Assembly (NCBI RefSeq): GCF_041886205.1
Contig: NZ_CP169029.1
Strand: one strand, 5' to 3'
Length of the DNA stretch: 64,000 nucleotides
Source: Escherichia coli
GTDB taxonomy: Bacteria > Pseudomonadota > Gammaproteobacteria > Enterobacterales > Enterobacteriaceae
A model generated the notes under the pieces. It worked only from the letters and a program-made list of their open reading frames with translations. It was not told the origin of the DNA and ran no database searches. Of the stretch, positions 9,186 to 52,133 are shown piece after piece (position 1 is the stretch's first letter; each line of letters opens with the position of its first letter). Made by a program: the position numbers and the translations under genes.

Positions 9186-9201
9186 ACTCATATCGAAATG
9201 T

Positions 9202-9696: not shown

Positions 9697-9746
9697 TGGG
9701 ATTTCCTTGAGCTATTCAGTTTGTTGACACAGTGTTCGTTGTTTTT

Positions 9747-9845: not shown

Positions 9846-9852
9846 GTCATAA

Positions 9853-9886
9853 GTAAAAAAGGGCGATCTTCCGACCGCCCTTTTTC
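9853..9886 (-). terminator. rho-independent terminator after pgm
   Basis: AAAAAGGGCG-loop-CGCCCTTTTT hairpin immediately 3' of pgm stop. Confidence 0.6.
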
Positions 9887-9899
9887 TTATTTAATGTGT

Positions 9900-11540
9900 T
9901 TACGCGTTTTTCAGAACTTCGCTAACAATCTCAACCGCTTCTTTCTCGATCTGCTTGCGATGTTCTTCCCCGAGGAAGCTTTCGCAGTAGATCTTATATG
10001 CGTCTTCCGTGCCTGACGGACGCGCGGCGAACCAGCCGTTGTCAGTCATCACTTTCAGGCCGCCGATAGAAGCACCGTTGCCCGGTGCCGCCGTCAGGCG
10101 CGCGGTGATTGGGTCGCCTGCCAGGGTGCTGGCGCTCACCATTTCCGGAGACAGCTTAGACAGCGCCGCTTTTTGTGCGGAAGTCGCAGCTGCCTGCAAA
10201 CGGTTGTAGCTCGGCGCACCAAAGCGTTTTGCCAGTTCGTTGTAGTGTTCCTGCGGGTTCTTACCGGTGACCGCGGTGATTTCCGCCGCCAGCAGACACA
10301 TAATGATGCCGTCTTTATCGGTGGACCACGGCGTGCCGTCGAAACGCAGGAAGGAAGCCCCTGCGCTCTCTTCGCCGCCAAAGCCGAAGCTACCGTCGAA
10401 CAGACCATCAACAAACCATTTGAAACCTACCGGTACTTCTACCAGCTTACGGCCCAAGTCATTGACCACACGGTCGATCATCGCAGAAGAAACCAGCGTT
10501 TTACCGACGGCAACATCTTTGCCCCACTGCGGACGATGCTGGAACAGGTAATTGATCGCCACCGCCAGGTAGTGGTTCGGATTCATCAAACCTGCCGGAG
10601 TGACGATACCGTGACGGTCATAATCCGGGTCGTTAGCAAACGCCAGATCGAACTTATCACGCAGTGCCAGCAGGCCCGCCATCGCACACTCGGAGGAGCA
10701 GTCCATACGGATCGCGCCGTCTTTATCAAGGTGCATAAAGCGGAAGGTTTGATCGACCTGATCGTTAACGATAGTCAGGTTGAGGTTGTAATACTCGCCA
10801 ATACGCTTCCAGTATTCGATACCGGAACCGCCCAGCGGATCAACGCCAAGCGTCAGGCCCGCTTTCTGAATCGCCGCCATATCAACGATATCGGCCAGCC
10901 CTTCCACGAACGGCTGCACCAGATCCTGCTCTTTCACATGACCGGATGCCATCGCTTCGTCGAGAGAGATACGCTTCACGCCTTTCAGGCCATCGGCCAG
11001 CAGTGCGTTGGCCCTGTCTTCCACCACTTTGGTGACGTTGGTATCAGCCGGGCCACCATTTGGCGGGTTGTACTTGATACCACCATCTTCCGGCGGGTTA
11101 TGGGACGGTGTAATCACGATACCGTCTGCCAGCGGGCCACCTTTTTTATTGTGAACCAGGATGGCATTGGAAACGGCAGGCGTCGGGGTGAAGCCATTGT
11201 TTTCCTGCACAATGACATCAACGCCGTTCGCTGCCAGCACTTCCAGTACGGAAATGAACGCAGGCTCGGACAGGGCGTGAGTATCTTTACCCACATAGCA
11301 AGGGCCAGTGATGCCGTTTTTCGCACGTTCTTCAGCAATTGCCTGAGCGATCGCCAGAATGTGCGGCTCGTTAAAGCTGTGGCGCGCTGCACTGCCACGG
11401 TGACCGGAAGTACCGAATTTCACCGCATGCTCCGCATTCCCTGCTTCTGGTTTCAGTACATAATATTGCGCCGTCAGTTGGGCGACGTTAATCAAATCAC
11501 TCTGTTGTGCAGGTTGGCCTGCACGATTGTGGATTGCCAT
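9900..11540 (-). CDS. pgm: phosphoglucomutase
   Basis: 546-aa frame from [22 protein letters not shown]; active-site TPSHNP motif. Confidence 0.97.
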
Positions 11541-19006: not shown

Positions 19007-19165
19007 CGTGGATTCCTCAAAGCGTAAACAACGTATAACGGCGTATGATCTTATAAGCGGGACAGGCTGACAACTGTTAGTTTTTTAAAATTGATAATCT
19101 AACAAGGATTATGGGGATGATTGATGAAAAAAAAGCGGCAGAGAAGATCTCCACCGCTTGTCATT

Positions 19166-19200
19166 GTTGGATGCGACGCTCAAGCGTCGCATCAGGCATA
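19166..19200. repeat. REP palindromic unit
   Basis: GGATGCGACGCTCAAGCGTCGCATCAGGC. Confidence 0.7.
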
Positions 19201-19207
19201 AAGCAGA

Positions 19208-35993: not shown

Positions 35994-36902
35994 ATGCAAT
36001 TACGTAAAACTGCCACAGCAATCCTCGCCCTGGCGCTTTCCGCAGGACTGGCACAGGCAGATGACGCCGCCCCGGCAGCAGGCAGTACGCTGGACAAAAT
36101 CGCCAAAAACGGTGTGATTGTCGTCGGTCACCGTGAATCTTCAGTACCTTTCTCTTATTACGACAATCAGCAAAAAGTGGTGGGTTACTCGCAGGATTAC
36201 TCCAACGCCATTGTTGAAGCAGTGAAAAAGAAACTCAACAAACCGGACTTGCAGGTAAAACTGATTCCGATTACCTCACAAAACCGTATTCCACTGCTGC
36301 AAAACGGCACTTTCGATTTTGAATGTGGTTCTACCACCAACAACGTCGAACGCCAAAAACAGGCGGCTTTCTCTGATACTATTTTCGTGGTCGGTACGCG
36401 CCTGCTGACCAAAAAGGGCGGCGATATCAAAGATTTTGCCGACCTGAAAGGCAAAGCCGTAGTCGTCACTTCCGGCACTACTTCTGAAGTTTTGCTCAAC
36501 AAACTGAATGAAGAGCAAAAAATGAATATGCGCATCATTAGCGCCAAAGATCACGGTGACTCTTTCCGTACCCTGGAAAGCGGTCGTGCCGTTGCCTTTA
36601 TGATGGATGACGCTCTGCTGGCCGGTGAACGTGCGAAAGCGAAGAAACCAGACAACTGGGATATCGTCGGCAAGCCGCAGTCTCAGGAAGCCTACGGTTG
36701 CATGTTGCGTAAAGATGATCCGCAGTTCAAAAAGCTGATGGATGACACTATCGCTCAGGTGCAGACTTCCGGTGAAGCGGAAAAATGGTTTGATAAATGG
36801 TTCAAAAATCCAATTCCGCCGAAAAACCTGAACATGAATTTCGAACTGTCAGACGAAATGAAAGCACTGTTCAAAGAACCGAATGACAAAGCACTGAACT
36901 AA
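35994..36902 (+). CDS. gltI: glutamate/aspartate ABC transporter periplasmic binding protein
   Basis: 302-aa frame from MQLRKTATAILALALSAGLAQA (signal peptide) within track ORF 35919..36902. Confidence 0.95.
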   Translation: MQLRKTATAILALALSAGLAQADDAAPAAGSTLDKIAKNGVIVVGHRESSVPFSYYDNQQKVVGYSQDYSNAIVEAVKKKLNKPDLQVKLIPITSQNRIPLLQNGTFDFECGSTTNNVERQKQAAFSDTIFVVGTRLLTKKGGDIKDFADLKGKAVVVTSGTTSEVLLNKLNEEQKMNMRIISAKDHGDSFRTLESGRAVAFMMDDALLAGERAKAKKPDNWDIVGKPQSQEAYGCMLRKDDPQFKKLMDDTIAQVQTSGEAEKWFDKWFKNPIPPKNLNMNFELSDEMKALFKEPNDKALN

Positions 36903-37058
36903 TTACAAGAACCAGGGGCGGAAATTCTAGCCCTCTCGATTGTTACGTAGCACGGACAGACTATACGCCTGATGGTCGTTCCCCATCGGGCCTGAAAACC
37001 GCAATACGCTGGGTAACAATCTTCGAGGGTAGCAGTTAACGCTGCTACCCTCTTTTTT
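36903..37058 (+). ncRNA. sroC: SroC small RNA (processed from gltI-gltJ spacer)
   Basis: Position between gltI and gltJ with strong intrinsic terminator hairpin; boundaries approximate. Confidence 0.5.
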
Positions 37059-37060
37059 CT
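37025..37060 (+). terminator. rho-independent terminator in gltI-gltJ spacer
   Basis: GAGGGTAGCAG-TTAAC-GCTGCTACCCTC followed by TTTTTTCT. Confidence 0.85.
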
Positions 37061-37071
37061 GGAGTAGATTT

Positions 37072-37812
37072 ATGTCTATAGACTGGAACTGGGGTATTTT
37101 TTTACAACAAGCCCCGTTCGGCAACACCACCTATCTTGGTTGGATCTGGAGTGGTTTTCAGGTGACGATCGCTTTGTCGATCTGCGCCTGGATTATCGCT
37201 TTCCTCGTCGGTTCATTTTTCGGCATTTTACGTACCGTTCCAAACCGTTTTCTCTCCGGTCTGGGTACGTTGTATGTCGAACTGTTCCGCAACGTGCCGT
37301 TGATTGTGCAATTCTTTACCTGGTATCTGGTGATCCCGGAGCTGCTGCCGGAGAAAATCGGCATGTGGTTTAAGGCCGAGCTGGATCCCAACATTCAGTT
37401 TTTCCTTTCATCCATGCTCTGCCTGGGGCTGTTTACCGCCGCCCGTGTTTGCGAACAGGTACGCGCCGCTATTCAGTCGCTGCCGCGTGGGCAGAAGAAT
37501 GCCGCGCTGGCGATGGGTCTGACGCTACCGCAGGCTTACCGCTACGTGCTGTTGCCTAACGCGTATCGCGTTATCGTCCCACCAATGACTTCCGAGATGA
37601 TGAACCTGGTGAAAAACTCCGCCATCGCCTCGACTATCGGTCTGGTGGATATGGCAGCGCAGGCGGGTAAATTGCTCGACTACTCGGCCCACGCCTGGGA
37701 GTCGTTTACCGCCATTACGCTTGCGTATGTGTTGATTAACGCTTTTATCATGCTGGTGATGACGCTGGTTGAACGTAAAGTTCGCCTGCCCGGCAACATG
37801 GGGGGCAAATAA
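37072..37812 (+). CDS. gltJ: glutamate/aspartate ABC transporter permease
   Basis: 246-aa [31 protein letters not shown]. Confidence 0.95.
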
Positions 37813-38486
37813 TGTACGAGTTTGACTGGAGTTCCATTGTTCCTTCCCTGCCATATCTGCTCGACGGGCTGGTGATCACCCTGAAAATCACCGTCACGGC
37901 AGTCGTGATTGGTATTTTGTGGGGTACCATGCTGGCGGTGATGCGCTTGTCCAGCTTCGCGCCTGTTTCGTGGTTTGCCAAAGCCTACGTTAACGTATTC
38001 CGCTCGATTCCTTTAGTCATGGTTTTGCTGTGGTTTTACTTGATTGTGCCGGGATTTCTGCAAAATGTGCTGGGATTATCGCCAAAAAATGATATTCGTT
38101 TAATTTCGGCGATGGTGGCGTTTTCGATGTTTGAAGCGGCCTACTATTCAGAGATTATCCGTGCCGGTATTCAAAGTATTTCTCGTGGTCAGTCGAGCGC
38201 CGCGCTGGCGTTGGGAATGACTCACTGGCAGTCGATGAAACTGATTATTCTGCCGCAGGCGTTCCGCGCGATGGTGCCGCTGCTGCTCACTCAGGGCATC
38301 GTACTGTTCCAGGATACCTCGCTGGTGTATGTGTTATCTCTGGCCGATTTCTTCCGTACCGCCTCAACCATTGGTGAGCGTGATGGTACGCAGGTTGAGA
38401 TGATCCTGTTTGCCGGATTTGTTTATTTCGTTATTAGCCTTAGCGCGTCGTTGTTGGTCAGCTACTTGAAAAGAAGGACAGCATAA
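37812..38486 (+). CDS. gltK: glutamate/aspartate ABC transporter permease
   Basis: 224-aa ORF; ATG overlaps gltJ stop. Confidence 0.95.
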
Positions 38487-39211
38487 TGATTACCCTGAAA
38501 AATGTTTCAAAATGGTATGGTCACTTTCAGGTGCTGACCGACTGCTCAACCGAAGTGAAAAAAGGCGAAGTAGTGGTGGTTTGCGGCCCGTCTGGTTCCG
38601 GCAAATCAACGCTGATTAAAACCGTCAACGGCCTCGAACCAGTGCAGCAAGGTGAAATCACCGTCGATGGTATCGTGGTTAACGACAAGAAAACCGATCT
38701 GGCAAAGCTGCGTTCTCGCGTCGGGATGGTATTCCAACATTTCGAGCTGTTCCCTCATCTGTCGATTATCGAAAACCTGACCCTGGCGCAGGTGAAAGTG
38801 CTTAAACGCGATAAAGCACCGGCTCGTGAAAAAGCATTGAAATTGCTGGAGCGCGTGGGACTTTCCGCACATGCCAATAAATTTCCGGCGCAGCTTTCCG
38901 GCGGCCAGCAGCAGCGTGTGGCGATCGCTCGCGCATTGTGTATGGATCCTATTGCCATGCTGTTCGACGAACCGACATCGGCGCTGGATCCGGAGATGAT
39001 CAACGAAGTGCTGGACGTAATGGTCGAACTGGCGAACGAAGGAATGACCATGATGGTGGTGACCCACGAAATGGGCTTTGCCCGTAAAGTGGCGAATCGG
39101 GTGATCTTTATGGACGAGGGTAAAATTGTCGAAGACTCGCCGAAAGACGCTTTCTTCGATGATCCGAAATCGGACCGCGCAAAAGATTTCCTCGCGAAAA
39201 TCCTGCATTAA
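38486..39211 (+). CDS. gltL: glutamate/aspartate ABC transporter ATP-binding protein
   Basis: 241-aa ORF with Walker [10 protein letters not shown] and ABC signature LSGGQQQR. Confidence 0.97.
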
Positions 39212-39328
39212 TCACTCTGGCGCGCATACCCAATTGCGCGCCATCTCACGCTTTATCGTTTCGCCCCTCGTATCTGTTACATCCTGGCGTTACCCTTGTC
39301 GCAAAGAAGCACACAACAAGGAGCAACA

Positions 39329-40264
39329 ATGGCACTGCCAATTCTGTTAGATTGCGACCCAGGTCATGACGACGCTATCGCAATAGTTCTCGCCCTCGCC
39401 TCACCAGAGCTTGATGTCAAAGCAATTACGTCTTCCGCCGGAAACCAGACACCAGAAAAAACCTTACGCAATGTTCTGCGTATGCTGACCTTGCTTAATC
39501 GCACCGATATTCCGGTAGCAGGCGGTGCGGTAAAACCGTTAATGCGTGAGTTGATTATCGCGGACAATGTGCACGGCGAAAGCGGTCTGGATGGCCCGGC
39601 ATTACCGGAACCGACGTTCGCACCGCAAAACTGTACGGCGGTAGAGCTGATGGCGAAAACGCTGCGCGAAAGTGCGGAACCTGTCACGATTGTGTCTACC
39701 GGACCGCAAACTAACGTTGCCTTGCTGCTCAATAGCCATCCGGAACTGCATAGCAAAATTGCCCGTATCGTGATTATGGGCGGCGCAATGGGGCTGGGTA
39801 ATTGGACGCCTGCGGCTGAATTTAATATTTACGTTGACCCGGAAGCGGCAGAAATTGTCTTCCAGTCAGGGATCCCGGTGGTGATGGCCGGTCTGGATGT
39901 TACTCACAAAGCACAAATCCACGTTGAAGACACTGAGCGTTTCCGCGCGATTGGCAACCCTGTTTCAACCATTGTTGCCGAACTGCTGGATTTCTTCCTC
40001 GAATATCATAAAGACGAAAAATGGGGCTTTGTCGGCGCACCGCTGCATGACCCATGCACCATCGCCTGGCTGTTAAAACCGGAGTTGTTTACCACTGTTG
40101 AGCGCTGGGTTGGCGTGGAAACACAGGGGAAATATACCCAGGGAATGACGATTGTTGATTATTATTATCTGACAGACAATAAACCGAATGCCATCGTAAT
40201 GGTCGATATTGATCGTCAGGGCTTTGTTGATTTACTGGCTGATCGTCTGAAATTTTACGCTTAA
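39329..40264 (+). CDS. rihA: pyrimidine-specific ribonucleoside hydrolase
   Basis: 311-aa frame from [20 protein letters not shown] (DxDxxxDD nucleoside hydrolase motif). Confidence 0.95.
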
Positions 40265-40347
40265 CACACGTCATTGATTAAGATCACCACGCGTTACCCG
40301 GGTGGTCTTAATCTGTTTATCTCTTTTTCCTTTAAGATATAAATGCA

Positions 40348-42018
40348 ATGGATAATGCAGAACTCGCCATTGGTATCGATCTCGGTACTACCAATAGTTT
40401 AATTGCCGTCTGGAAAGACGGTGCCGCGCAATTAATTCCAAATAAGTTCGGTGAATATTTAACACCATCCATAATTAGCATGGATGAAAACAATCATATT
40501 TTAGTCGGAAAACCGGCTGTATCACGGCGTACTTCGCATCCGGATAAAACGGCAGCGTTATTTAAACGTGCAATGGGCAGTAATACCAACTGGCGGTTAG
40601 GCAGCGACACATTTAACGCGCCAGAACTGTCCTCTTTGGTATTACGCTCATTAAAAGAAGATGCCGAAGAATTTCTGCAACGTCCGATTAAAGATGTGGT
40701 GATCTCCGTTCCGGCTTATTTCAGCGATGAACAACGCAAGCATACCCGTTTAGCAGCGGAGTTAGCCGGGTTAAATGCGGTACGCTTAATTAATGAACCC
40801 ACAGCAGCTGCGATGGCACATGGCCTGCATACGCAACAAAATACCCGCTCGCTGGTTTTTGATCTCGGTGGCGGCACGTTTGACGTCACGGTGCTCGAAT
40901 ACGCCACGCCGGTGATTGAAGTTCACGCCTCCGCTGGCGACAACTTTCTTGGCGGCGAAGATTTTACTCATATGCTGGTGGATGAAGTTTTAAAACGCGC
41001 CGCAGTGGCTAAAAACATGCTCAACGAAAGTGAGCTGGCAGCCCTGTACACCAGCGTGGAAGCGGCAAAATGCGGCAATCAATTACCGCTGCAAATTAGC
41101 TGGCAGTATCAGGAAGAAACGCGGGAATGCGAATTTTACGAGAACGAACTGGAAGATTTGTGGTTGCCGCTGCTCAATCGCTTGCGAGTGCCGATTGAAC
41201 AGGCGTTGCGCGATGCGCGTCTGAAGCCGAGTCAAATCGACAGTCTGGTGCTGGTTGGCGGCGCGTCACAAATGCCGCTGGTGCAGCGAATCGCCGTGCG
41301 TCTGTTTGGCAAATTACCGTATCAAAGTTACGATCCGAGCACCATTGTCGCGCTGGGCGCAGCAATCCAGGCCGCCTGCCGCTTACGCAGTGAAGATATT
41401 GAAGAAGTGATCCTCACTGATATTTGCCCTTACTCGTTGGGTGTTGAAGTTAACCGTCAGGGCGTATCCGGCATTTTCTCGCCGATTATTGAACGAAACA
41501 CCACAGTACCGGTGTCGCGTGTAGAAACTTACTCGACCATGCACCCGGAGCAGGATTCAATTACGGTTAACGTCTATCAGGGAGAAAACCACAAAGTTAA
41601 AAATAACATTCTGGTGGAATCCTTCGATGTGCCGTTGAAGAAAACCGGGGCTTATCAGTCGATTGATATTCGCTTTAGTTATGATATCAACGGGTTGCTT
41701 GAAGTTGACGTGCTTCTGGAAGACGGCAGCGTTAAGTCCAGAGTGATTAACCACAGCCCGGTAACATTGAGCGCACAGCAGATTGAAGAGAGTCGGACGC
41801 GGTTATCCGCATTGAAAATTTATCCGCGCGATATGCTCATCAACCGTACCTTTAAGGCCAAACTGGAAGAGTTGTGGGCGCGGGCGCTGGGTGACGAGCG
41901 AGAAGAGATCGGCCGGGTGATCACCGATTTTGATGCGGCGTTGCAGTCAAACGATATGGCCCGCGTCGATGAAGTTCGTCGACGGGCGAGCGATTATTTG
42001 GCTATTGAGATCCCTTAA
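40348..42018 (+). CDS. hscC: Hsp70-family chaperone HscC
   Basis: 556-aa ORF MDNAELAIGIDLGTTNSLIAVW; Hsp70 ATPase signatures (IDLGTTNS, DLGGGTFD). Confidence 0.95.
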   Translation: MDNAELAIGIDLGTTNSLIAVWKDGAAQLIPNKFGEYLTPSIISMDENNHILVGKPAVSRRTSHPDKTAALFKRAMGSNTNWRLGSDTFNAPELSSLVLRSLKEDAEEFLQRPIKDVVISVPAYFSDEQRKHTRLAAELAGLNAVRLINEPTAAAMAHGLHTQQNTRSLVFDLGGGTFDVTVLEYATPVIEVHASAGDNFLGGEDFTHMLVDEVLKRAAVAKNMLNESELAALYTSVEAAKCGNQLPLQISWQYQEETRECEFYENELEDLWLPLLNRLRVPIEQALRDARLKPSQIDSLVLVGGASQMPLVQRIAVRLFGKLPYQSYDPSTIVALGAAIQAACRLRSEDIEEVILTDICPYSLGVEVNRQGVSGIFSPIIERNTTVPVSRVETYSTMHPEQDSITVNVYQGENHKVKNNILVESFDVPLKKTGAYQSIDIRFSYDINGLLEVDVLLEDGSVKSRVINHSPVTLSAQQIEESRTRLSALKIYPRDMLINRTFKAKLEELWARALGDEREEIGRVITDFDAALQSNDMARVDEVRRRASDYLAIEIP

Positions 42019-42024
42019 ACACGA

Positions 42025-42058
42025 CTGCCGGATGCGGCGTAAACGCTGCATCCGGCAT
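42025..42058. repeat. REP palindromic unit between convergent hscC and djlC
   Basis: GCCGGATGCGGCGTAAACGCTGCATCCGGC. Confidence 0.7.
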
Positions 42059-42077
42059 CGGCGCAAAAAACACATCG

Positions 42078-43529
42078 TCAGCTAAACAACATCGCGATTT
42101 TGCCGAGAGCATAACCTATCACCAGCACCGTTAAACTGATTTTGATAATGCCGGTAATGCTCTGTGGTTTTTCATCCTCATCATGTATTTCTTCATGGTT
42201 TTCAGGTGTTGGCTCATCGACATCTTCATCCTCCGGCTCCAGTTTCACTTTCGTCAACAGCATCCGGGTGACAATGGCCTCTAATGGATGAGCATCTCCG
42301 CCTTCCAGCCTTGTATTAAGACGGGCCAGCATCTCTTGTTTCGGAAACGCTTCAAGTACTACCTGTTCCGCTACCCGATACAAATCCAGTAACGGTGAAT
42401 CTTGCTCTGTCTCGCTACCGACTCTCGATTTCCACCACGCCCATGCTTTGCGTTTGAAGAATAACGACTCAATAAACGATTGACCTAACGGCGATAATTT
42501 TCCGCTATGTAAAATCTCCGCCCATAACAGCCGCGTCCGGGCGCTCTCACCAGGAACATATTTCAATGGTTTACCTTGCGCATCTACCATGCTCTGCGCT
42601 TCGATAACCATCACTAATAACGCGAAATAATCTGGGCAATGACGCTTACTCCACTGCAACAACAAATTATCAGCTTGTGTAGATGGGTAACTTTCCCGGT
42701 ACGCGCAGAGATCGGCAAGCAGGCTTTCCCCCTCGCCGCAGTACAACCTTTGAGCACACAAGTAATATCGGGCATCTTCGCTTTCTGGTTCTTCCATTTG
42801 CCACTGTTTGGCTACAGGAATGAGTTCCGCCATACCTGTTTGCACCGAGCTGTACCAGCGCAACAGTTTGCGATGTAACTTTGCATCATCAGGAATGAAC
42901 CACGGACCTTCCATCGCCAGAAACGCAGTGACATAGTCAGGATGGTAACGGCAGCAACGTTCCAGCGCGAAGTAATACTCAACCGTCTGGTTCTGCAACG
43001 CAACGGGAAATTCCAGAAGGCTAAGGAAATCGAAACAATCACCAGCCTGAATGGCCTCAAGAAAAGCCTCCCTTTCTTCCTCATCCATTCCTTCGCTGTC
43101 ATTAAACGAATGCCAGTTCAAACGCTCTGCCAGCAAAGAAGCACAATTTAATGAAAGATATCGCGCTTCTATAGCGATTGCACACAGCGGCCAGCGTAAT
43201 TGATAGACATCCTCCATGTTCCAGGTATTTAATTGCTGAATAAATTTCTGCCAGGCGGAGGGCTGAAAACGATCACTTTCTGAATCCAGTAATGTCCTGA
43301 ATGCACGTAGTATTTCATGTTCAGCGGCGGCATCTTTATCTTCATTATCTGCTTCCTCGACAGGATTTACCGCCAGTCGCAGCGCCTCTTCATAGGCCTG
43401 GCGTAATGCTTTAAACCCTTGCGGATCGGTTTCGGGATGACATAACGGTAAGCGAGCAAGATAAGCCTGGCGGATAATGTCTATTTGCGTCGTGCTTTCA
43501 ATTTCGAGGATTTGCCAACATGTTTTCAT
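42078..43529 (-). CDS. djlC: J-domain co-chaperone DjlC (YbeV), C-terminally tail-anchored
   Basis: 483-aa [38 protein letters not shown]; C-terminal hydrophobic segment [22 protein letters not shown]. Confidence 0.9.
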
Positions 43530-44233
43530 AGGTCGCTCACATCCTTAAGCGTTACCGGGCATTCAGGCTGGGCAGTTAATGGCTGCCAGGGAAGCGTGGC
43601 ATAGAAACGATCGCTTCCCGCTGCCAGCTCTTCGAACATCCGACTCCCGGCGCTATCGTATTTGTACAGGGTTAGCGCCTCGCGTAGCGAAGTGTTGTCT
43701 TCGCACTGAGAAGATTGCCAGTAGAGACGTCCTAACGAATAGGCAGAAAAATAGTGCATCCAGCTGTGATAGTAATGGTGAGCTCGTACATAGACGCGCG
43801 ATTGCAGCCATAAACTCTCTTCTTCCGTCAGCCACTTGTTGAGCACACCGACCCGTGACAGAAACCCCATTCGAACATAATCCCAGGCTTTGATTCCCCC
43901 TTCTCCACAGCACATAGCGGTTTGGGCAACGAATTGGGTATAAATCAACCCTCTCTCCGAGCCACCAGCAATTAATGCTTTCCACTCTTCAGGGGAAGAG
44001 CGATGCCATGTCAGATATAAGCCAGCTAAATCATTGGCATGACCATCATCAGTCATCTGATAAATAGTCTGAATTAAATCATCACGATTATTTATTCCCT
44101 AGGATGATGAGAGATCGAATTCTTTTATCCCGGTATACATTTTTGGCGAGTCATGCGCGGGTTTGCAACCCTGATTAAGTATTTCCATGGGCGCAGAAAG
44201 CGCAAAAAGAAGATATTGTTCATCCTTATTCAT
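43526..44233 (-). pseudogene. ybeU: DUF1266 protein YbeU interrupted by in-frame amber codon at codon 45
   Basis: Reading frame from ATG at 44233 ([23 protein letters not shown]...EFDLSSS) hits TAG at 44099..44101, then continues in the same frame to stop at 43526; paralog ybeR has Trp at the equivalent position. Confidence 0.65.
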
Positions 44234-44334
44234 TTGTTAATAATCCCTTAAGTGCATTAACTGACTACTTTTTTATTATTGATAAGTATAAACTTGACGC
44301 TTTCAAAATAAAAAGAAAATCGAAGTATTCACAT

Positions 44335-44889
44335 ATGAATAAAAAATTAATGTATATATTCTCAATATTTATAGTTGCAGCAATTACCTGTATTAGCCAA
44401 CCCAAGAAAACAACGTTGCGTGATAAAGCCATGGTGAATTATGCCTTAGATTATTTAAGCTCACCGGGCAGTCTTCCATTCACCACGGCGGCCACGGAGC
44501 TTTCCGCGATTCATGGTCACTCAACGTCGCAATATCGCCTTGGAGAATTTTATCTTCATGGTAGCGACGGTAAACCACTGGATTATACACAGGCGAGATA
44601 CTGGTATGAGCAATCAGCGGAACAGGAAAATCCACGCGCGCAAAGTAAACTGGGGTGGATCTACCTCAAAGGTCTGGGGGTCAAACCCGACACCCGTAAA
44701 GCAATTCTCTGGTATAAGGAAGCAGCTGAACAAGGGTATGCTCATGCTCAATATACTTTAGGTTTGATCTACAGAAATGGCTCAGGTATTAATGTTAACC
44801 ATTATGAATCTCAAAAATGGTTAAAACTGGCCGCCAAACAACATTACAAAAATGCGGAAAGATTACTTGCCGGGCTTCCCGCACATTAA
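44335..44889 (+). CDS. ybeT: Sel1-repeat protein YbeT
   Basis: 184-aa ORF with signal/TM N-terminus and Sel1-like repeats ([27 protein letters not shown]). Confidence 0.85.
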
Positions 44890-44898
44890 CGTCGACTG

Positions 44899-46322
44899 TC
44901 AACCGAACAGATGGAGTATTTTCCCTATCAAACCAGCAAAGATAAAAATATAGAAAATAATTTTAATGATGCCCAGACAGCCTGGCCCACCATCGTCAAC
45001 GGGCATTGGCTGCGGTTGCGGCTCCGGTTCAACAGTTTGCTTCTCGGTAAAATTCGCCGCCTGAATTAATAATCGACGAATAATTAATGCTTCCAGTGGA
45101 CAACGATCTTCTGCATCAAGGCGGCTCATAATCGGCATTAATGATTCTTCTGTTGGTTGGCCTGCACTAATTGTTTGGCAACTAAATATAATGGCCATAA
45201 GGGATGTTCTGTATCACGCGTGAGTGAGATCCGCGGCTTACGTCCTTTGTGCAAAACCATCTCGACCAGTGAACGCCCCAGAGCAGAGAGTTTTTCATCG
45301 CTGAGTATTTCGTATAAATGAAAACGCGTACGGGCGCTGTCGCCGGGGATATAAAGTAGCGGTTTTCCCTGATCGTTAACCAGTTCACGAGCTTCAATCA
45401 TCATCACCACTAACGGGTAATAATCGACCCGATGCTGACGGCACCATTGCAATATTAAAGCATCCGCCTGGGTGGAGGGATACTCGCGCCAGTAGTCACA
45501 AAGTTCTGCCAGCAAGCTTTCGCCTTCTCCACAATAGACGCGTTGTGCGTATTCATAATAACGCGCATCTTCATTATCAGATTCAGCTTCCCGCCACGAC
45601 CGGGCGTAATCCAGGAGTTCGGGAATTCCCAGGCGACCTGCGCTATACCAGCGGAGTAAATTTCTGTGCAGTTTTGCATCATCGGGGATAATCACTGCGC
45701 GATGTTGCGCTAAATACAATGTCAGCCATTCTGGATGCGATGACCAAATCCGAGCGAACATTTGGTAAAAATCGATGGTGTCATTTTGCACGGCAACGGG
45801 CAGATGCAGAATGGTCTGGAAGTTAAAAACATTCCCCTTCGCAATGGCATATAAAAAGGATTCCAGTTCTTCTTCGTCTATTTCCCCGGTATTTTCCTCC
45901 TGTAACCACCGCAATCTTTCTGCTAATAACACCACGCACTCGAAGGATAAATGGGCCGTGTTCATGGCTATTGAGCACAGCGACCAGCGTAATTCATCAA
46001 TCTCATCCATCGAGCAATAATTTAATTGCTGAATGAATCGCTGCCAGGCGGAGGGCAGAAAACGTTCACTATCAGAGGCAAGTAACGCACGAAAGGCGAG
46101 CAGAATTTCATGTTCTGCTACCTCATATTCTTCTGGTTGCCAAACAGATTTAGCAGGCGACTGCGCAATCCGGAGCGCTTCCTCATACGCCTGACGAAGT
46201 TGTTTAAAACCCTGCGGATCGGTTTCTGGATGAAAGGACGGTAACAGCGCCAGATAAGCGCGGCGGATAATATCGACGTCAGTCGTTTCCTCTATTTCGA
46301 GAATCTTCCAGCAATTTTTCAT
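44899..46322 (-). pseudogene. djlB: J-domain protein DjlB (YbeS) split by a frameshift at a CCAA tandem repeat
   Basis: N-terminal 394-aa ORF (46322..45138) and overlapping 99-aa ORF (45198..44899) in another frame are both collinear with paralog DjlC; total span 1424 nt is not a multiple of 3. Confidence 0.65.
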
Positions 46323-47026
46323 AGGTCGCTCATATCCTTAAGCGTTTCCGGGCATACAGAATAGTAAGCCAATGGTTGCCAGGACAAGGTGGGGTAATAC
46401 GCATCATCACTGGCAAATAATTGATAAAACATATCATTGCCGGAATCGTCGTATTCTTTACGCGCTAAGAATTCACGTAATAACTGCAGATTATCATCCT
46501 CGGGAGACTGCCAATATTGCCGACCAAAGGTATAACCGGCAAAGTATTGCCGCCAGTTACGATAATAACGTAGAGCCCGTAGATGAATGCGCGACTGGAT
46601 CCATAGACTTTCTTCTTCGCTCAACCAGTTATTAAGTACGCCCATTCGGCTTAAAAAACCCATCCGGACATAATCCCAGGCTTTAATTCCTCCCTCACCA
46701 CAGCATTCGGCGGTGCTGGCGACAAATTGCGCATAAGCCTGACCTTGCTCATTTAGTTCAGCAAGATAGTCACGCCATTCACACGGAGAATAACGAAACC
46801 AGCGGTGATAAAACCCTGCCAACCGAGCGGCATGACCGTTATCGATCATTCGGTGAATTGTGCGCAGCAGGTCATCACGGTCATCAATTCCCCATGAGGA
46901 AGAAAGGTCAAAAAAGCATGTACCTAAATACATTTTGGGTGATGAATGCGAAGGTAAACAGCATTCATTGCGTATTTCCATCGGAGTTGACAGAGCAAAC
47001 AGTAATTTTTGCGACTCCATGTCCAT
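46319..47026 (-). CDS. ybeR: DUF1266 protein YbeR
   Basis: 235-aa ORF, paralog of ybeU; stop overlaps djlB start (4-nt overlap). Confidence 0.85.
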
Positions 47027-47190
47027 GATAATTTATCCTTAAATATTCACTAAATAAATATCAACTACATTGCGAGGATCATTTATTTATACCTTTCTGA
47101 CGCGACATAATACGCATAAAATAAGTCTTACGCAAAAATGGAACACATAAAAATATAATATACTTTATCTGCAACCATAAGGAAATGATA

Positions 47191-48168
47191 ATGATTTTTA
47201 CGTCAAGTTGCTGCGATAATTTATCAATAGATGAGATTATCGAACGTGCTGAACAAGGCGATTGCGAGGCTCAATATATTGTTGGGTTTTATTATAATCG
47301 CGATAGCGCAATTGACTCTCCGGACGACGAAAAGGCCTTTTACTGGCTGAAGCTTGCCGCTGAGCAAGGCCATTGTGAAGCACAATATTCCTTGGGGCGG
47401 AAATACTCCGAGGAGAAAAGCCGTCATAAAGATAATGAGCAAGCCATCTTTTGGCTGAAAAAAGCAGCCCTACAAGGCCATACTTTCGCTTCCAACGCCC
47501 TTGGCTGGATACTGGATCGTGGAGAAGACCCCAACTATAAAGAAGCGGTTGCCTGGTATCAGATAGCCGCGGAGAGCGGAATGTCTTATGCGCAAAATAA
47601 TCTTGGATGGATGTACAGAAATGGCAACGGAGTCGCACAAGACTATACGCTGGCATTTTTCTGGTACAAACAAGCTGCATTACAAGGCCATAGTTACGCA
47701 CAAGACAATCTGGCCGATCTTTATAAAGACGGAGAAGGCGTTGCTCAAAACAAGTCACTCGCCGCATTCTGGTATTTGAAAAGCGCACAGCAGGGTAATC
47801 GGCACGCCCAGTTTCAAATTGCATGGGATTATAACGCTGGCGAAGGGGTGGACCAGGACTATAAGCAAGCGATGTACTGGTATCTGAAGGTTGCTGCTCA
47901 GGAAAGCGTCGGCGCTTACGTCAACATCGGTTATATGTATAAACACGGACAAGGCGTTGAGAAAGATTATCAGGCCGCCTTTGAATGGTTTACGAAAGCC
48001 GCTGAATGCAATGACGCCACAGCCTGGTATAACCTGGCCATTATGTATCACTACGGAGAAGGAAGACCTGTCGATCTCCGACTGGCTCTCGACCTGTATC
48101 GTAAAGTTCAGTCATCCGGAACCAGAGATGTCAGTCAAGAAATTCGTGAGATTGAGGATTTACTGTAG
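47191..48168 (+). CDS. ybeQ: Sel1-repeat protein YbeQ
   Basis: 325-aa frame (MIFTSSCCDNLSIDEI) with about eight Sel1-like repeats (AQYxLGxxY pattern). Confidence 0.85.
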   Translation: MIFTSSCCDNLSIDEIIERAEQGDCEAQYIVGFYYNRDSAIDSPDDEKAFYWLKLAAEQGHCEAQYSLGRKYSEEKSRHKDNEQAIFWLKKAALQGHTFASNALGWILDRGEDPNYKEAVAWYQIAAESGMSYAQNNLGWMYRNGNGVAQDYTLAFFWYKQAALQGHSYAQDNLADLYKDGEGVAQNKSLAAFWYLKSAQQGNRHAQFQIAWDYNAGEGVDQDYKQAMYWYLKVAAQESVGAYVNIGYMYKHGQGVEKDYQAAFEWFTKAAECNDATAWYNLAIMYHYGEGRPVDLRLALDLYRKVQSSGTRDVSQEIREIEDLL

Positions 48169-48175
48169 AGATAAA

Positions 48176-48212
48176 AACAAGGGCCGGGGAATTTCATTCG
48201 GCCCATATTCTC
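48176..48212. terminator. bidirectional terminator between convergent ybeQ and ybeL
   Basis: GGGCCGGGG-AATTTCATT-CGGCCC hairpin with T/A runs on both sides. Confidence 0.55.
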
Positions 48213-48237
48213 TTTATTGCTGTGCGAAATCAGACTA

Positions 48238-48720
48238 TTACGGCTCGAACGGGCGTCTCTGGAACTGATCATGACCACATTTCGGGCATAGCGTCAGCAC
48301 TTCCGGTGTGTAGATCGGGAGATGGAAGTGACATTTCTCGCAGACCAGATTCCCCAGCCCTACCACTTCTCCGCTGTGATAAACCCCGTGATGATTGAGA
48401 TCCTGGAAAACTTCACGCCATTCAAGCTGCGTTTTATCGGTGATGTCTGCCAGCTCCTGCCATAAGCTTTCTTTAATCACACGCATAAAGACGCTGTCAG
48501 ATTCTTCTTTCAGGCTCTCTTCATAGCTCATGGCGAACTCTTCCAGGTCACGTCTGACAGCTCGCGTCAGCTCATCGACCTCGGTTCGCGTTAACTCCCC
48601 TGTTTTTATTACGCGCTCGCGCGCCTGTTCCACCAGTGCGTCGATATCACGTTCGCCATTGCGCAGGCGTTCGCTCAGTGACGCGACCAGTTCACGGTAA
48701 TATTGAGCAACCTTGTTCAT
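48238..48720 (-). CDS. ybeL: DUF1451 zinc-ribbon protein YbeL
   Basis: 160-aa ORF MNKVAQYYRELVASLSERLRNGERDID; C-terminal CxxC...CPKCGH. Confidence 0.85.
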   Translation of the reverse strand: MNKVAQYYRELVASLSERLRNGERDIDALVEQARERVIKTGELTRTEVDELTRAVRRDLEEFAMSYEESLKEESDSVFMRVIKESLWQELADITDKTQLEWREVFQDLNHHGVYHSGEVVGLGNLVCEKCHFHLPIYTPEVLTLCPKCGHDQFQRRPFEP

Positions 48721-48954
48721 CGTTTCATCTCCCGGGTCGTTAACTGACTATAATAATAGACGTTCTTTGTTCCTTGCTTTGCTAATACGCCCACAAACTC
48801 TGTAAATTAATGTACGAATAATCCGGGCATCATTTCAACGTCGAGTGCGCGAAAGGCTGTTTTGACGCGGACGTTTGGGCTATGCTATGCGGATCTGAAA
48901 AACCACCTCAACGCTACATTTGTAGCCGTATTGAAAACAGGACCACTGGCTGCC

Positions 48955-51537
48955 ATGCAAGAGCAATACCGCCCGGAAGAGATAGAATCCAAAGTACAGC
49001 TTCATTGGGATGAGAAGCGCACATTTGAAGTAACCGAAGACGAGAGCAAAGAGAAGTATTACTGCCTGTCTATGCTTCCCTATCCTTCTGGTCGACTACA
49101 CATGGGCCACGTACGTAACTACACCATCGGTGACGTGATCGCCCGTTACCAGCGCATGCTGGGCAAAAACGTTCTGCAGCCGATCGGCTGGGACGCGTTT
49201 GGTCTGCCTGCGGAAGGCGCGGCGGTGAAAAACAACACCGCTCCGGCACCGTGGACGTACGACAACATCGCGTATATGAAAAACCAGCTCAAAATGCTGG
49301 GCTTTGGTTATGACTGGAGCCGCGAGCTGGCAACCTGTACGCCGGAATACTACCGTTGGGAACAGAAATTCTTCACCGAGCTGTATAAAAAAGGCCTGGT
49401 ATATAAGAAGACTTCTGCGGTCAACTGGTGCCCGAACGACCAGACCGTACTGGCGAACGAACAAGTTATCGACGGCTGCTGCTGGCGCTGCGATACCAAA
49501 GTTGAGCGTAAAGAGATCCCGCAGTGGTTTATCAAAATCACCGCTTACGCTGACGAGCTGCTCAACGATCTGGATAAACTGGATCACTGGCCAGACACCG
49601 TTAAAACCATGCAGCGTAACTGGATCGGTCGTTCCGAAGGCGTGGAGATCACCTTCAACGTTAACGACTATGACAACACGCTGACCGTTTACACTACCCG
49701 CCCGGACACCTTTATGGGTTGTACCTACCTGGCAGTAGCTGCGGGTCATCCGCTGGCGCAGAAAGCGGCGGAAAATAATCCTGAACTGGCGGCCTTTATT
49801 GACGAATGCCGTAACACCAAAGTTGCCGAAGCTGAAATGGCGACAATGGAGAAAAAAGGCGTCGATACTGGCTTTAAAGCTGTTCACCCATTAACGGGCG
49901 AAGAAATTCCCGTTTGGGCAGCAAACTTCGTATTGATGGAGTACGGCACGGGCGCAGTTATGGCGGTTCCGGGTCACGACCAGCGCGACTACGAGTTTGC
50001 CTCTAAATACGGCCTGAACATCAAACCGGTTATCCTGGCGGCTGACGGCTCTGAGCCAGATCTTTCTCAGCAAGCCCTGACTGAAAAAGGCGTGCTGTTC
50101 AACTCTGGCGAGTTCAACGGTCTTGACCATGAAGCGGCCTTCAACGCCATCGCCGATAAACTGACTGCGATGGGCGTTGGCGAGCGTAAAGTGAACTACC
50201 GCCTGCGCGACTGGGGTGTTTCTCGTCAGCGTTACTGGGGCGCGCCGATTCCGATGGTGACGCTGGAAGACGGTACCGTAATGCCGACCCCGGACGACCA
50301 GCTGCCGGTGATCCTGCCGGAAGATGTGGTAATGGACGGCATTACCAGCCCGATTAAAGCAGATCCTGAGTGGGCGAAAACTACCGTTAACGGTATGCCA
50401 GCGCTGCGTGAAACCGACACTTTCGACACCTTTATGGAGTCCTCCTGGTACTATGCGCGCTACACTTGCCCGGAGTACAAAGAAGGTATGCTGGATTCTA
50501 AAGCGGCTAACTACTGGCTGCCGGTGGATATCTACATTGGTGGTATCGAACACGCCATTATGCACCTGCTCTACTTCCGCTTCTTCCACAAACTGATGCG
50601 TGATGCAGGCATGGTGAACTCTGACGAACCAGCGAAACAGTTGCTGTGTCAGGGTATGGTGCTGGCAGATGCCTTCTACTATGTTGGTGAAAACGGCGAA
50701 CGTAACTGGGTTTCCCCGGTTGATGCTATCGTTGAACGTGACGAGAAAGGCCGTATCGTGAAAGCGAAAGACGCGGCAGGCCATGAACTGGTTTATACCG
50801 GCATGAGCAAAATGTCCAAGTCGAAGAACAACGGTATCGACCCGCAGGTGATGGTTGAACGTTACGGCGCGGACACCGTTCGTCTGTTTATGATGTTTGC
50901 TTCTCCGGCTGATATGACTCTCGAATGGCAGGAATCCGGCGTGGAAGGGGCTAACCGCTTCCTGAAACGTGTCTGGAAACTGGTGTACGAGCATACAGCA
51001 AAAGGTGATGTTGCGGCACTGAACGTTGATGCACTGACTGAAGATCAGAAAGCGCTGCGTCGCGATGTGCATAAAACTATCGCTAAAGTGACCGATGATA
51101 TCGGCCGTCGTCAGACCTTCAACACCGCAATTGCGGCGATTATGGAGCTGATGAACAAACTGGCGAAAGCACCGACCGATGGCGAGCAGGATCGCGCTCT
51201 GATGCAGGAAGCACTGCTGGCCGTTGTCCGTATGCTTAACCCGTTCACCCCGCACATCTGCTTCACGCTGTGGCAGGAACTGAAAGGCGAAGGCGATATC
51301 GACAACGCGCCGTGGCCGGTTGCTGACGAAAAAGCGATGGTGGAAGACTCCACGCTGGTTGTGGTGCAGGTTAACGGTAAAGTCCGTGCCAAAATCACCG
51401 TTCCGGTGGACGCAACGGAAGAACAGGTTCGCGAACGTGCTGGCCAGGAACATCTGGTAGCAAAATATCTTGATGGCGTTACTGTACGTAAAGTGATTTA
51501 CGTACCAGGTAAACTCCTCAATCTGGTCGTTGGCTAA
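48955..51537 (+). CDS. leuS: leucyl-tRNA synthetase
   Basis: 860-aa frame from [22 protein letters not shown]; HMGH and KMSKS class I motifs. Confidence 0.97.
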
Positions 51538-51551
51538 GCGCGGGAGGAAGC

Positions 51552-52133
51552 GTGCGATATCTGGCAACATTGTTGTTATCTCTGGCGGTGTTAATCACCG
51601 CCGGGTGTGGCTGGCATCTGCGTGATACCACGCAGGTTCCTTCCACTATGAAGGTCATGATTCTGGACTCAGGCGATCCGAACGGGCCATTAAGCCGTGC
51701 GGTGCGTAACCAGTTACGTCTGAATGGTGTCGAGTTGCTTGATAAAGAAACCACGCGTAAGGACGTTCCATCCCTGCGTTTGGGTGCTGTATCAATCTCG
51801 CAGGATACCGCGTCGGTTTTCCGTAATGGTCAAACTGCGGAATATCAGATGGTGATGACTGTTAGCGCGTCGGTATTGATTCCTGGACGAGATATCTACC
51901 CGATTAGCGCCAAAGTCTTCCGTTCGTTCTTCGATAACCCGCAAATGGCGTTAGCGAAAGATAACGAGCAGGAAATGATCATTAAAGAGATGTACGACCG
52001 TGCTGCCGAACAGCTGATTCGTAAGCTACCAAGCATCCGTGCTGCGGATATTCGTTCCGACGAAGAACAGACGTCGACCACAACGGATACTCCGGCAACG
52101 CCTGCACGCGTCTCCACCACGCTGGGTAACTGA
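51552..52133 (+). CDS. lptE: LPS assembly lipoprotein LptE
   Basis: 193-aa ORF from [22 protein letters not shown] lipobox. Confidence 0.93.

What the first reader, a model, noticed from the sequence alone, without database searches (positions are those of the whole stretch)
42078..48168. AT-rich compositional block from djlC to ybeQ suggests an old horizontally acquired islet
By eye this stretch is markedly more AT-rich than the flanking housekeeping genes (hscC/rihA on one side, leuS on the other). It carries duplicated genes of unknown function and is bounded by a REP element on the hscC side and a hairpin terminator on the ybeL side. That is the signature of accessory rather than core DNA. 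I did not compute GC content.
Basis: inference. Interest (0 to 1): 0.25.

Follow-up and report, generated by a model that had tools for sequence, protein, structure and literature searches.

The report
AT-rich accessory HscC chaperone islet
The AT-rich stretch is real, but it is the already known, dispensable gene cluster for E. coli's third Hsp70 chaperone (HscC and its helpers): it is old, missing from about a fifth of strains and decaying in this one, so it is ordinary.

Summary
Window 42078-48168 has 45.8% GC against 51.8% for the rest, and is the lowest 6.1-kb stretch in the 64 kb. Its six genes have GC3 0.38-0.50 and CAI 0.21-0.27; neighbouring genes average 0.57 and 0.38.

The boundaries are wrong. 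The unit that comes and goes in E. coli is window 40271-48236 and includes hscC. Of 5,426 complete genomes, rihA and ybeL are in more than 99.9%, hscC in 81% and the full block in 68%. A shared 2.8-kb internal deletion is in 10%. In 18%, including CFT073, rihA sits directly next to ybeL.

The cluster encodes HscC, two paralogous tail-anchored J-domain co-chaperones (DjlC, DjlB), a DUF1266 gene overlapping each of them (ybeU, ybeR), and two Sel1-repeat genes (ybeT, ybeQ). The djl/DUF1266 pair is an old tandem duplication.

The cluster occupies the same locus in other Escherichia, Salmonella, Citrobacter enshiensis and Klebsiella spallanzanii, so it is old and its absence is a loss. A DUF1266, J-protein and HscC cassette also occurs at unrelated loci elsewhere. 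No mobility genes, tRNA or flanking repeats were found.

In this strain ybeU has a nonsense codon and djlB a frameshift. Horizontal origin is plausible but not proven. Interest is low.

The parts
40271..48236 (.). Whole variable unit (7,966 bp, 46.6% GC). In 963 E. coli genomes it is replaced by a 44-bp spacer containing a REP-like hairpin.
   Evidence: Alignment of the empty site in L005 to the window. Junction survey. CFT073 has ybeL next to rihA. GC.
40276..40313 (+). Hairpin followed by a T-rich tract downstream of rihA (likely the rihA terminator), in the 83-bp rihA-hscC spacer (38.6% GC).
   Evidence: Sequence. Fold -24.4 kcal/mol, z -5.7.
40348..42018 (+). hscC, an Hsp70-family ATPase (556 aa). 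Composition is intermediate: GC 0.498, GC3 0.526, CAI 0.29, with the first 300 bp at 44% GC.
   Evidence: Pfam HSP70, E 6.6e-115. Annotation. Composition. Found in 4,409 of 5,426 genomes.
42025..42058 (.). REP element between the convergent genes hscC and djlC.
   Evidence: Inverted repeat I14. Motif recurs in the window, 6 matches against 0.02 expected. Fold -32 kcal/mol, z -7.5.
42078..43529 (-). djlC (483 aa): J-domain co-chaperone of HscC with an HPE motif at residue 31 and a C-terminal hydrophobic tail anchor (residues 464-482).
   Evidence: Pfam DnaJ, 19 bits, below the cut-off. Hydropathy and motif. ATPase stimulation and membrane insertion are from the literature (PMC8215388).
43526..44233 (-). 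ybeU (DUF1266), a pseudogene in this strain: Trp45 TGG is changed to TAG at 44099-44101. Its stop overlaps the djlC start by 4 bp.
   Evidence: Comparison with K-12. RefSeq note 'internal stop'. W45 is invariant in alignment A1. Pfam DUF1266.
44234..44334 (.). Divergent ybeU/ybeT intergenic region, 24.8% GC. It is presumably where the divergent promoters lie and a likely H-NS target.
   Evidence: GC. ybeT and ybeU-djlC (called ybeU-hscD in the paper, taken here to be ybeU-djlC) are in the H-NS regulon and rise on SlyA over-expression in K-12 (PMC5797941).
44335..44889 (+). ybeT (184 aa): Sel1-repeat protein with an N-terminal hydrophobic signal-like segment. It has the lowest GC in the window (0.427, GC3 0.383). 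It is present in the Escherichia loci examined and absent from the Salmonella and Citrobacter loci.
   Evidence: Pfam Sel1. Hydropathy. tblastn against L008, L010 and L011-L013. Gene maps.
44899..46322 (-). djlB, a pseudogene in this strain. A 4-bp deletion between window 45161 and 45162 truncates it at 394 aa and removes the C-terminal tail anchor.
   Evidence: Alignment to K-12. RefSeq note 'frameshifted'. The tail anchor is present only in the downstream 99-aa ORF.
46319..47026 (-). ybeR (DUF1266, 235 aa), intact. Its stop overlaps the djlB start by 4 bp.
   Evidence: Pfam DUF1266, E 7e-46. AlphaFold model is all-alpha, pLDDT 91.6.
47027..47190 (.). Divergent ybeR/ybeQ intergenic region, 26.8% GC.
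47191..48168 (+). ybeQ (325 aa): Sel1-repeat protein with 8 repeats and no signal sequence.
   Evidence: Pfam Sel1, E 1.5e-61. Hydropathy. Positional homologues in Salmonella and Citrobacter are also Sel1 proteins.
48181..48204 (+). Terminator-like hairpin after ybeQ (8-bp stem, 6 G-C pairs).
   Evidence: Fold -16.4 kcal/mol, z only -1.3.

Best explanation
The AT-rich block is most of an old, dispensable, poorly expressed accessory cluster. Its true extent is hscC to ybeQ (window 40271-48236).

The cluster encodes E. coli's third Hsp70 system. HscC is the ATPase. DjlC and DjlB are paralogous J-domain co-chaperones anchored in the inner membrane by a C-terminal tail. From published work on K-12, they recruit HscC to the membrane and stimulate its ATPase. 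Each djl gene is overlapped by 4 bp by an upstream DUF1266 gene (ybeU, ybeR). I infer that the pair is made together and that the DUF1266 protein acts as an adaptor or client. Sel1-repeat proteins (ybeQ, and ybeT in Escherichia) are transcribed divergently from very AT-rich spacers that, in K-12, lie in the H-NS regulon.

History. A DUF1266, J-protein and HscC cassette was present at the ybeL/glt locus before Escherichia, Salmonella and Citrobacter diverged. I infer it was acquired from outside. The J/DUF1266 pair then duplicated in tandem. ybeT was added on the Escherichia branch. The non-Hsp70 genes have diverged far faster than the flanking genes. The cluster has since been lost completely in about 18% of E. 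coli and partly in about 10%. In the strain of this window it is decaying (ybeU nonsense codon, djlB frameshift).

The low GC reflects a foreign origin, or long-term weak selection on silenced genes, or both.
For: - Composition.
- Presence and absence: hscC in 4,409, the block in 4,447 (at least 80% of it in 3,689), rihA in 5,421 and ybeL in 5,424 of 5,426 genomes.
- The identical empty junction is in 963 genomes, including CFT073. A shared internal-deletion junction is in 566 genomes. One strain has an IS1-associated deletion.
- Domains: HSP70, J-domain, DUF1266 and Sel1.
- Tandem duplication with a 2,793-bp period.
- Tail anchors and the HPE motif.
- Pseudogene lesions.
- Same locus in S. 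enterica subsp. salamae, C. enshiensis, K. spallanzanii (single module) and three other Escherichia species.
- E. coli against Salmonella identity: flanking proteins 91-95.5%, except LptE at 80%; HscC 83%; DjlC 56%; YbeU 64%; DjlB 47.5%; YbeR 63%; YbeQ 52%.
- Cassette at unrelated loci: Gilliamella (between a BON-domain gene and xseA) and two other contigs, one with two DUF1266 genes and three DjlB-like genes.
- Literature: DjlC stimulates the HscC ATPase; both DjlB and DjlC are described as tail-anchored, with membrane insertion shown for DjlC; deletion of hscC or of both djl genes causes Cd2+ sensitivity; HscC is below the detection limit in proteomics; its distribution is sporadic, which the review takes to suggest HGT (PMC8215388).
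- Literature: membership of the H-NS regulon and a rise on SlyA over-expression (PMC5797941). A DUF1266 gene is up 308-fold in a table of genes de-repressed when H-NS is lost in strain 042; which locus it is was not checked (PMC7582179).
- The region is deleted in the viable reduced-genome strain DGF-298 (PMC10652928).
Against: - Nothing marks a transfer event. There is no integrase or transposase, no tRNA, no flanking direct repeats and no copy in phages. The 8 hits in the plasmid collection look like chromosomal sequence filed as plasmid: six records are 0.28-4.9 Mb, but one full-length hit lies in a 113-kb record and was not examined.
- The GC3 deficit varies between genera, about -5 to -8 points in Salmonella, -10 in Citrobacter and -10 to -15 in E. 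coli. This is not what a single fading donor signature predicts, and it fits a steady state of weak selection.
- Per-gene deviations are modest, z -1 to -3. Native genes such as lipB, ybeF and ybeD are as AT-rich.
- hscC itself is compositionally near-normal.
- The empty site carries a REP-like hairpin that has no counterpart at the islet edges, so a simple one-step deletion is not demonstrated.
- The roles proposed for DUF1266 and the Sel1 proteins are inferred only from gene order and from DUF1266-TPR fusions elsewhere.
Confidence: 0.75

Rival explanations
1. Native, vertically inherited genes. The cluster has always belonged to this enterobacterial lineage. Its AT-richness is the equilibrium of AT-biased mutation under weak selection on rarely expressed, H-NS-bound genes, and not a relic of a foreign donor. 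Absence from some strains and genera is simply repeated deletion of dispensable DNA.
For: - Syntenic in four genera.
- The GC3 deficit varies between the three genera.
- dN/dS is mildly raised, 0.20-0.27 for djlC, ybeU, ybeT and ybeQ against 0-0.15 in the flanking genes.
- Very low CAI, and HscC, DjlB and DjlC are undetectable by proteomics (PMC8215388).
- No mobility signature.
Against: - The same cassette lies at unrelated loci in Gilliamella and in other contigs.
- Among the source names given for the 95 clusters of YbeR relatives, only Escherichia/Shigella, Salmonella, Pseudocitrobacter, Kluyvera and C. enshiensis appear. None is from K. pneumoniae or Enterobacter, although many clusters carry no name.
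- GC3 is lower than in equally low-CAI native genes.
- The review literature describes HscC as sporadically distributed (PMC8215388).
Confidence: 0.2
2. A recently acquired, still mobile genomic island (integrative element, prophage remnant or transposon) inserted between hscC and ybeL.
For: Variable presence in E. coli. IS1 or IS5 elements are associated with the locus in a few strains.
Against: - No integrase, transposase, tRNA or flanking repeats in the window.
- No match in phages. Most plasmid-collection hits are chromosome-sized records, with one 113-kb record left unexamined.
- Same locus, with 47-83% protein identity, in other genera.
- The variable unit includes hscC.
Confidence: 0.02
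3. A conflict or defence module. The HscC, tail-anchored J-protein and DUF1266 cassette, with its Sel1 partners, would be a membrane-associated system that acts against phages, toxins or host factors. That role would explain its fast evolution, paralogue expansion, patchy distribution and silencing.
For: - The non-Hsp70 components are only 47-64% identical between E. coli and Salmonella, where most flanking proteins are 91-95%.
- Tandem expansion to two or three J/DUF1266 units.
- The locus is a hot spot for other accessory genes.
- It lies in the H-NS regulon (PMC5797941).
- The known phenotypes, Cd2+ and UV sensitivity, are weak and unexplained (PMC8215388).
Against: - No significant match to any of the PADLOC models.
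- No nuclease, toxin or effector domain was found.
- The DUF1266 fold matches nothing informative.
- Within E. coli dN/dS is below 0.3, so selection is purifying rather than diversifying.
- The cluster is pseudogenised or deleted in many strains.
Confidence: 0.08

Closest known systems
HscC-DjlB/DjlC Hsp70 system of E. coli K-12 (older names Hsc62/YbeW, YbeS, YbeV/Hsc56)
   Same: The genes, order and locus are the same. The block is 97.3% identical to K-12 in nucleotides. The domains and tail anchors match the published description (PMC8215388).
   Different: In this strain djlB is frameshifted and loses its tail anchor, and ybeU carries a nonsense codon. Only the HscC-DjlC arm and ybeR, ybeQ and ybeT remain intact.
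H-NS-silenced, AT-rich accessory DNA of enterobacteria (xenogeneic silencing targets)
   Same: Coding GC is below the flanking genes and the divergent promoter spacers have 25-27% GC. The K-12 orthologues ybeT and ybeU-djlC are listed in the H-NS regulon and rise on SlyA over-expression (PMC5797941). The cluster is variably present.
   Different: It is much older and less AT-rich than typical silenced islands. It has no mobility genes and sits at the same locus across genera.
Classical tRNA-associated genomic or pathogenicity islands
   Same: Atypical composition, strain-variable presence, and insertion in a hot-spot region that carries different cargo in related species.
   Different: No integrase, no tRNA or att repeats, only 8 kb, and no virulence or resistance cargo.

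Membership tests
Horizontally acquired genomic island (classical definition) | Base composition and codon usage differ from the surrounding chromosome | tested here: met
   45.8% against 51.8% GC. GC3 0.45 against 0.57. CAI 0.23 against 0.38. Permutation tests gave 28 and 4 of 20,000. hscC itself is near normal.
Horizontally acquired genomic island (classical definition) | Present in some strains and absent from others, with a recognisable empty site | tested here: met
   963 of 5,426 genomes have rihA, a 44-bp spacer, then ybeL. 566 share an internal deletion. 3,689 carry at least 80% of the block.
Horizontally acquired genomic island (classical definition) | Mobility genes (integrase, transposase) or carriage on phage or plasmid | tested here: not met
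   Pfam on all ORFs finds none. No phage match. Most plasmid-collection hits are chromosome-sized records; one 113-kb record was not examined.
Horizontally acquired genomic island (classical definition) | Insertion next to a tRNA or tmRNA gene, with flanking direct repeats | tested here: not met
   No tRNA in 36000-52000. No direct repeat pairs the two edges.
Horizontally acquired genomic island (classical definition) | Patchy distribution, or a phylogeny that conflicts with the species tree | tested here: inconclusive
   The cassette lies at unrelated loci in Gilliamella and other contigs, and named relatives come from few enterobacterial genera. No tree reconciliation was done, and the genome-contig scan was too restrictive, returning only 7 loci.
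HscC-type Hsp70 system | Hsp70 ATPase of about 550-580 aa (HscC subfamily) | tested here: met
   556 aa, Pfam HSP70 E 6.6e-115. RefSeq names it 'molecular chaperone HscC'. The length range is from PMC8215388.
HscC-type Hsp70 system | Adjacent class C J-domain co-chaperone with an N-terminal J-domain | tested here: met
   DnaJ domain at residues 4-47 of DjlC and DjlB, but at 19-22 bits, below Pfam's 27.8 cut-off, and with HPE instead of HPD. The precomputed family PF27158 DjlB_C_2nd hits the homologues.
HscC-type Hsp70 system | C-terminal tail anchor on the co-chaperone | tested here: met
   DjlC residues 464-482 have a mean hydropathy of 1.99. The DjlB anchor is encoded, but in this strain it lies out of frame after the 4-bp deletion.
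HscC-type Hsp70 system | The J-protein stimulates the HscC ATPase | not testable with these tools
   Reported for K-12 DjlC only (Kluck et al. 2002, as reviewed in PMC8215388).
REP (repetitive extragenic palindromic) element | Matches the GCCGGATG...CATCCGGC palindrome, is extragenic and is multi-copy | tested here: met
   At 42027-42056. The same 20-mer recurs at 9099, 9747, 17165 and 17296, against 0.02 matches expected. The hairpin folds at -32 kcal/mol, z -7.5.
Known anti-phage defence systems | At least one protein matches a defence-system model | tested here: not met
   The PADLOC scan gave nothing significant; the only matches had E of about 1e-3 and came from Sel1/TPR repeats.

The most novel reading that the evidence does not exclude
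The cassette of DUF1266, a tail-anchored J-protein (in one to three copies) and a convergent HscC would be a distinct, horizontally spreading, membrane-associated Hsp70 module. DUF1266, a confidently predicted all-alpha fold with no solved relative, would be its specificity factor. Its real role would be in biological conflict or envelope stress rather than general protein folding. That role would explain its fast divergence, copy-number expansion, silencing and frequent loss.
Probability: 0.1. Interest if true: 0.55.

Novelty: already known. Interest (0 to 1): 0.15.

Why it matters
It matters little for discovery. The genes, their chaperone role, their place in the H-NS regulon and the sporadic distribution of HscC are all published.

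- The variable unit includes hscC.
- Three common alleles circulate in E. coli: full, half-deleted and empty.
- The cluster predates the split of Escherichia and Salmonella.
- ybeT is a later addition.
- This strain carries a decaying copy.

It also illustrates a general caution: AT-richness alone cannot separate an old foreign origin from long-term weak selection on silenced genes.

The open biological question is what the DUF1266 and Sel1 partners of this Hsp70 system do.

Tried and rejected
- Rfam on 38000-50000: no family.
- PADLOC on all eight proteins: nothing significant.
- Sequence search of YbeR and DjlC against PDB chains: no credible hit.
- Genome-contig scan with the DUF1266 alignment: the two peptide patterns were too strict. 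It returned 7 loci and missed E. coli and Salmonella themselves, so it cannot support any claim of absence.
- One look-up of encoding contigs failed, and one contig was too short to show context.
- The promoter-consensus scan was not enriched: 8 sites against 13.4 expected.
- Phage and plasmid searches found no evidence of mobile carriage, though one 113-kb plasmid-collection record holding the whole unit was not examined.
- The literature search for island or phylogroup papers on hscC returned nothing relevant.
- Rejected: that the half-size allele arose by recombination between the paralogous modules. Its junction joins the 3' end of djlB to the middle of ybeQ.
- Rejected: that ybeT and ybeQ belong to the in-register duplication. 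They are similar only at the repeat level, and YbeT has an N-terminal hydrophobic segment that YbeQ lacks.
- Noted limit: in Tannerella a distant DUF1266 gene has no J-protein or Hsp70 neighbour, so the link holds for the YbeR/YbeU-like subfamily only.

Full report
**Identity of the window.** The window is Escherichia coli chromosome. It is nearly identical to strain wlxctx60, isolated from Asian black bear faeces. The gene order around the finding is:
- gltIJKL
- rihA (39329-40264, +)
- hscC (40348-42018, +)
- djlC (42078-43529, -)
- ybeU (43526-44233, -)
- ybeT (44335-44889, +)
- djlB (44899-46322, -)
- ybeR (46319-47026, -)
- ybeQ (47191-48168, +)
- ybeL (48238-48720, -)
- leuS (48955-51537, +)

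**Observation.** The compositional claim is correct and now has numbers.
- The block 42078-48168 has 45.8% GC against 51.8% for the rest of the window. It is essentially the lowest 6.1-kb stretch of the 64 kb.
- The two sharpest troughs, 36-38% GC in 500-bp windows, coincide with the divergent intergenic regions ybeU/ybeT (24.8% GC) and ybeR/ybeQ (26.8% GC).
- The six genes have GC 0.43-0.48, GC3 0.38-0.50 and CAI 0.21-0.27.
- A six-gene run this low arose in 28 of 20,000 gene-order permutations for GC and 4 of 20,000 for GC3. The genes also have lower GC3 than native genes of equally low CAI (0.45 against 0.55, P=0.005).
- Individually the deviations are modest, z -1 to -3. A few native genes (lipB, ybeF, ybeD) are as AT-rich.
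- The REP element (42025-42058) and the hairpin after ybeQ (48181-48204) both exist.

**The boundaries are wrong.** I surveyed 5,426 complete E. coli genomes.
- rihA is in 5,421 and ybeL in 5,424.
- hscC is in only 4,409. The djlC-ybeQ block is in 4,447, and at least 80% of it is in 3,689.
- In strain FDAARGOS_1262 and in CFT073, rihA is followed directly by ybeL.
- Alignment places the breakpoints at window 40271 and 48236. The 7,966 bp between them are replaced by a 44-bp spacer containing a REP-like hairpin.
- That exact junction is in 963 genomes, 17.7%.
- A second common allele, in 566 genomes (10.4%), has lost most of djlB, all of ybeR and the 5' two-thirds of ybeQ.
- Other alleles involve IS1 or IS5.

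So hscC is part of the variable unit, not a housekeeping flank. The REP lies between the convergent genes hscC and djlC, inside the unit.

**What the cluster encodes.**
- HscC is an Hsp70.
- DjlC and DjlB carry a short, divergent N-terminal J-domain. It scores below Pfam's cut-off and has HPE where HPD is usual. Both have a C-terminal hydrophobic tail.
- According to the review PMC8215388, DjlC is the J-protein that stimulates the HscC ATPase; DnaJ, CbpA and HscB do not. Both proteins are described as tail-anchored, with membrane insertion shown for DjlC. Deletion of hscC, or of both djl genes, gives Cd2+ sensitivity. All three proteins are below the proteomic detection limit.
- ybeU and ybeR are DUF1266 genes. 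Each overlaps the start of the following djl gene by 4 bp.
- ybeT and ybeQ are Sel1-repeat proteins.
- djlC-ybeU and djlB-ybeR form an in-register tandem duplication with a 2,793-bp period, 71-76% nucleotide and 54-58% protein identity.
- ybeT and ybeQ resemble each other only repeat by repeat. YbeT alone has an N-terminal hydrophobic segment.

**Age.** The cluster lies at the same locus in several relatives.
- S. enterica subsp. salamae and Citrobacter enshiensis have ybeQ, ybeR, djlB, ybeU, djlC and hscC, without ybeT.
- Klebsiella spallanzanii has one DUF1266/J pair plus hscC and no Sel1 gene.
- Two unnamed Escherichia species and E. whittamii have all seven genes.

Presence is therefore ancestral for Escherichia, and the empty allele is most simply a loss. 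ybeT, the most AT-rich gene, was added on the Escherichia branch. That insertion split what is a single four-gene operon in Salmonella.

Most flanking proteins are 91-95.5% identical between E. coli and Salmonella (LptE is 80%). HscC is 83%, and the other islet proteins only 47-64%. Within E. coli, dN/dS is 0.07-0.27, which is purifying but somewhat relaxed selection.

**Evidence bearing on foreign origin.**
- In favour: a cassette of DUF1266, an overlapping J-protein and a convergent HscC occurs at unrelated loci in a Gilliamella genome and in two other contigs. One of these has two DUF1266 genes and three DjlB-like genes. Named relatives of YbeR come from only a few enterobacterial genera. 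The review literature calls the distribution of HscC sporadic and suggests transfer (PMC8215388).
- Against, or neutral: there is no integrase, tRNA or flanking repeat, and no phage copy; the plasmid-collection hits look like chromosomal sequence, with one 113-kb record left unexamined. The GC3 deficit varies between genera, from -5 to -15 points. That fits a steady state of weak selection on silenced genes as well as it fits a fading donor signature.

Horizontal acquisition is therefore plausible but not shown.

**Silencing and dispensability.**
- ybeT and ybeU-djlC are listed in the H-NS regulon and rise when SlyA is over-expressed (PMC5797941).
- A DUF1266 gene is strongly de-repressed when H-NS is lost in strain 042. 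Which locus it is was not checked (PMC7582179).
- The region is deleted in the viable reduced-genome strain DGF-298 (PMC10652928).

**State in this strain.**
- ybeU has Trp45 (invariant in the family) changed to a stop codon at 44099-44101.
- djlB has a 4-bp deletion at about 45161. It ends the protein at 394 aa and cuts off the tail anchor.

**Function of the unknown partners.**
- A confident model of YbeR (pLDDT 91.6) is all-alpha and has no informative structural neighbour.
- Elsewhere DUF1266 is fused to TPR repeats. This weakly supports a link with the neighbouring Sel1/TPR-like genes.
- A distant Tannerella DUF1266 gene has no J-protein or Hsp70 neighbour.
- No defence-system model matches.

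**Verdict.** The block is accessory and old, but its boundaries and the role of hscC were misjudged, and horizontal origin is unproven. The feature is already known, and interest is low.

Noticed in passing
window 8410-11540: speF-potE, which lie between pgm and kdpE in CFT073, are absent here. In their place is a 164-aa ORF (9202-9696; GC 0.453, CAI 0.19, no Pfam match) bracketed by REP elements at 9099-9118 and 9747-9766.
   Followed up: partly
window 192-1009: ybgA and ybfA are adjacent, 101 bp apart. The rhsC-ybfB...ybfD block that separates them in K-12 (listed in PMC10652928) is absent.
   Followed up: no
[not shown]
   Followed up: partly
window 19007-19207; L022 13714-22693: CFT073 has nine extra genes between nagE and glnS (sialidase family, D-threonate kinase and dehydrogenase, a DeoR regulator and others). 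The window has only a 201-bp spacer.
   Followed up: no
L014 14020-17532; L008 3784-8263 and 16094-17335: The ybeL/glt locus collects other cargo in relatives. K. spallanzanii has a two-partner secretion pair (TPS and ShlB) between hscC and gltL. S. salamae has a four-gene sugar-acid cluster between leuS and ybeL, and a 413-aa ORF with no Pfam match between hscC and rihA.
   Followed up: partly
L015 10001-10388: The end of a contig labelled Paenibacillus sp. USDA918EY is 100% identical at protein level to E. coli YbeU. This is probably contamination or a chimeric assembly.
   Followed up: no
window 43437-43445 (djlC) and 46230-46238 (djlB): Both J-domains carry HPE instead of the canonical HPD tripeptide, and both score below Pfam's DnaJ cut-off.
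   Followed up: partly
proteins P0201, P0234, P0163, P0180; L017 517-2061: In other bacteria DUF1266 is fused to TPR repeats or to a Cu_amine_oxidN1 domain. In a Tannerella contig it sits next to a YkuD-type L,D-transpeptidase, with no J-protein or Hsp70 nearby.
   Followed up: partly
window 51552-52133: lptE is unusually divergent for an essential gene: 93.8% nucleotide identity to K-12 (dS 0.19, 12 non-synonymous changes) and only 80% protein identity to Salmonella, next to leuS at 95.5%.
   Followed up: no
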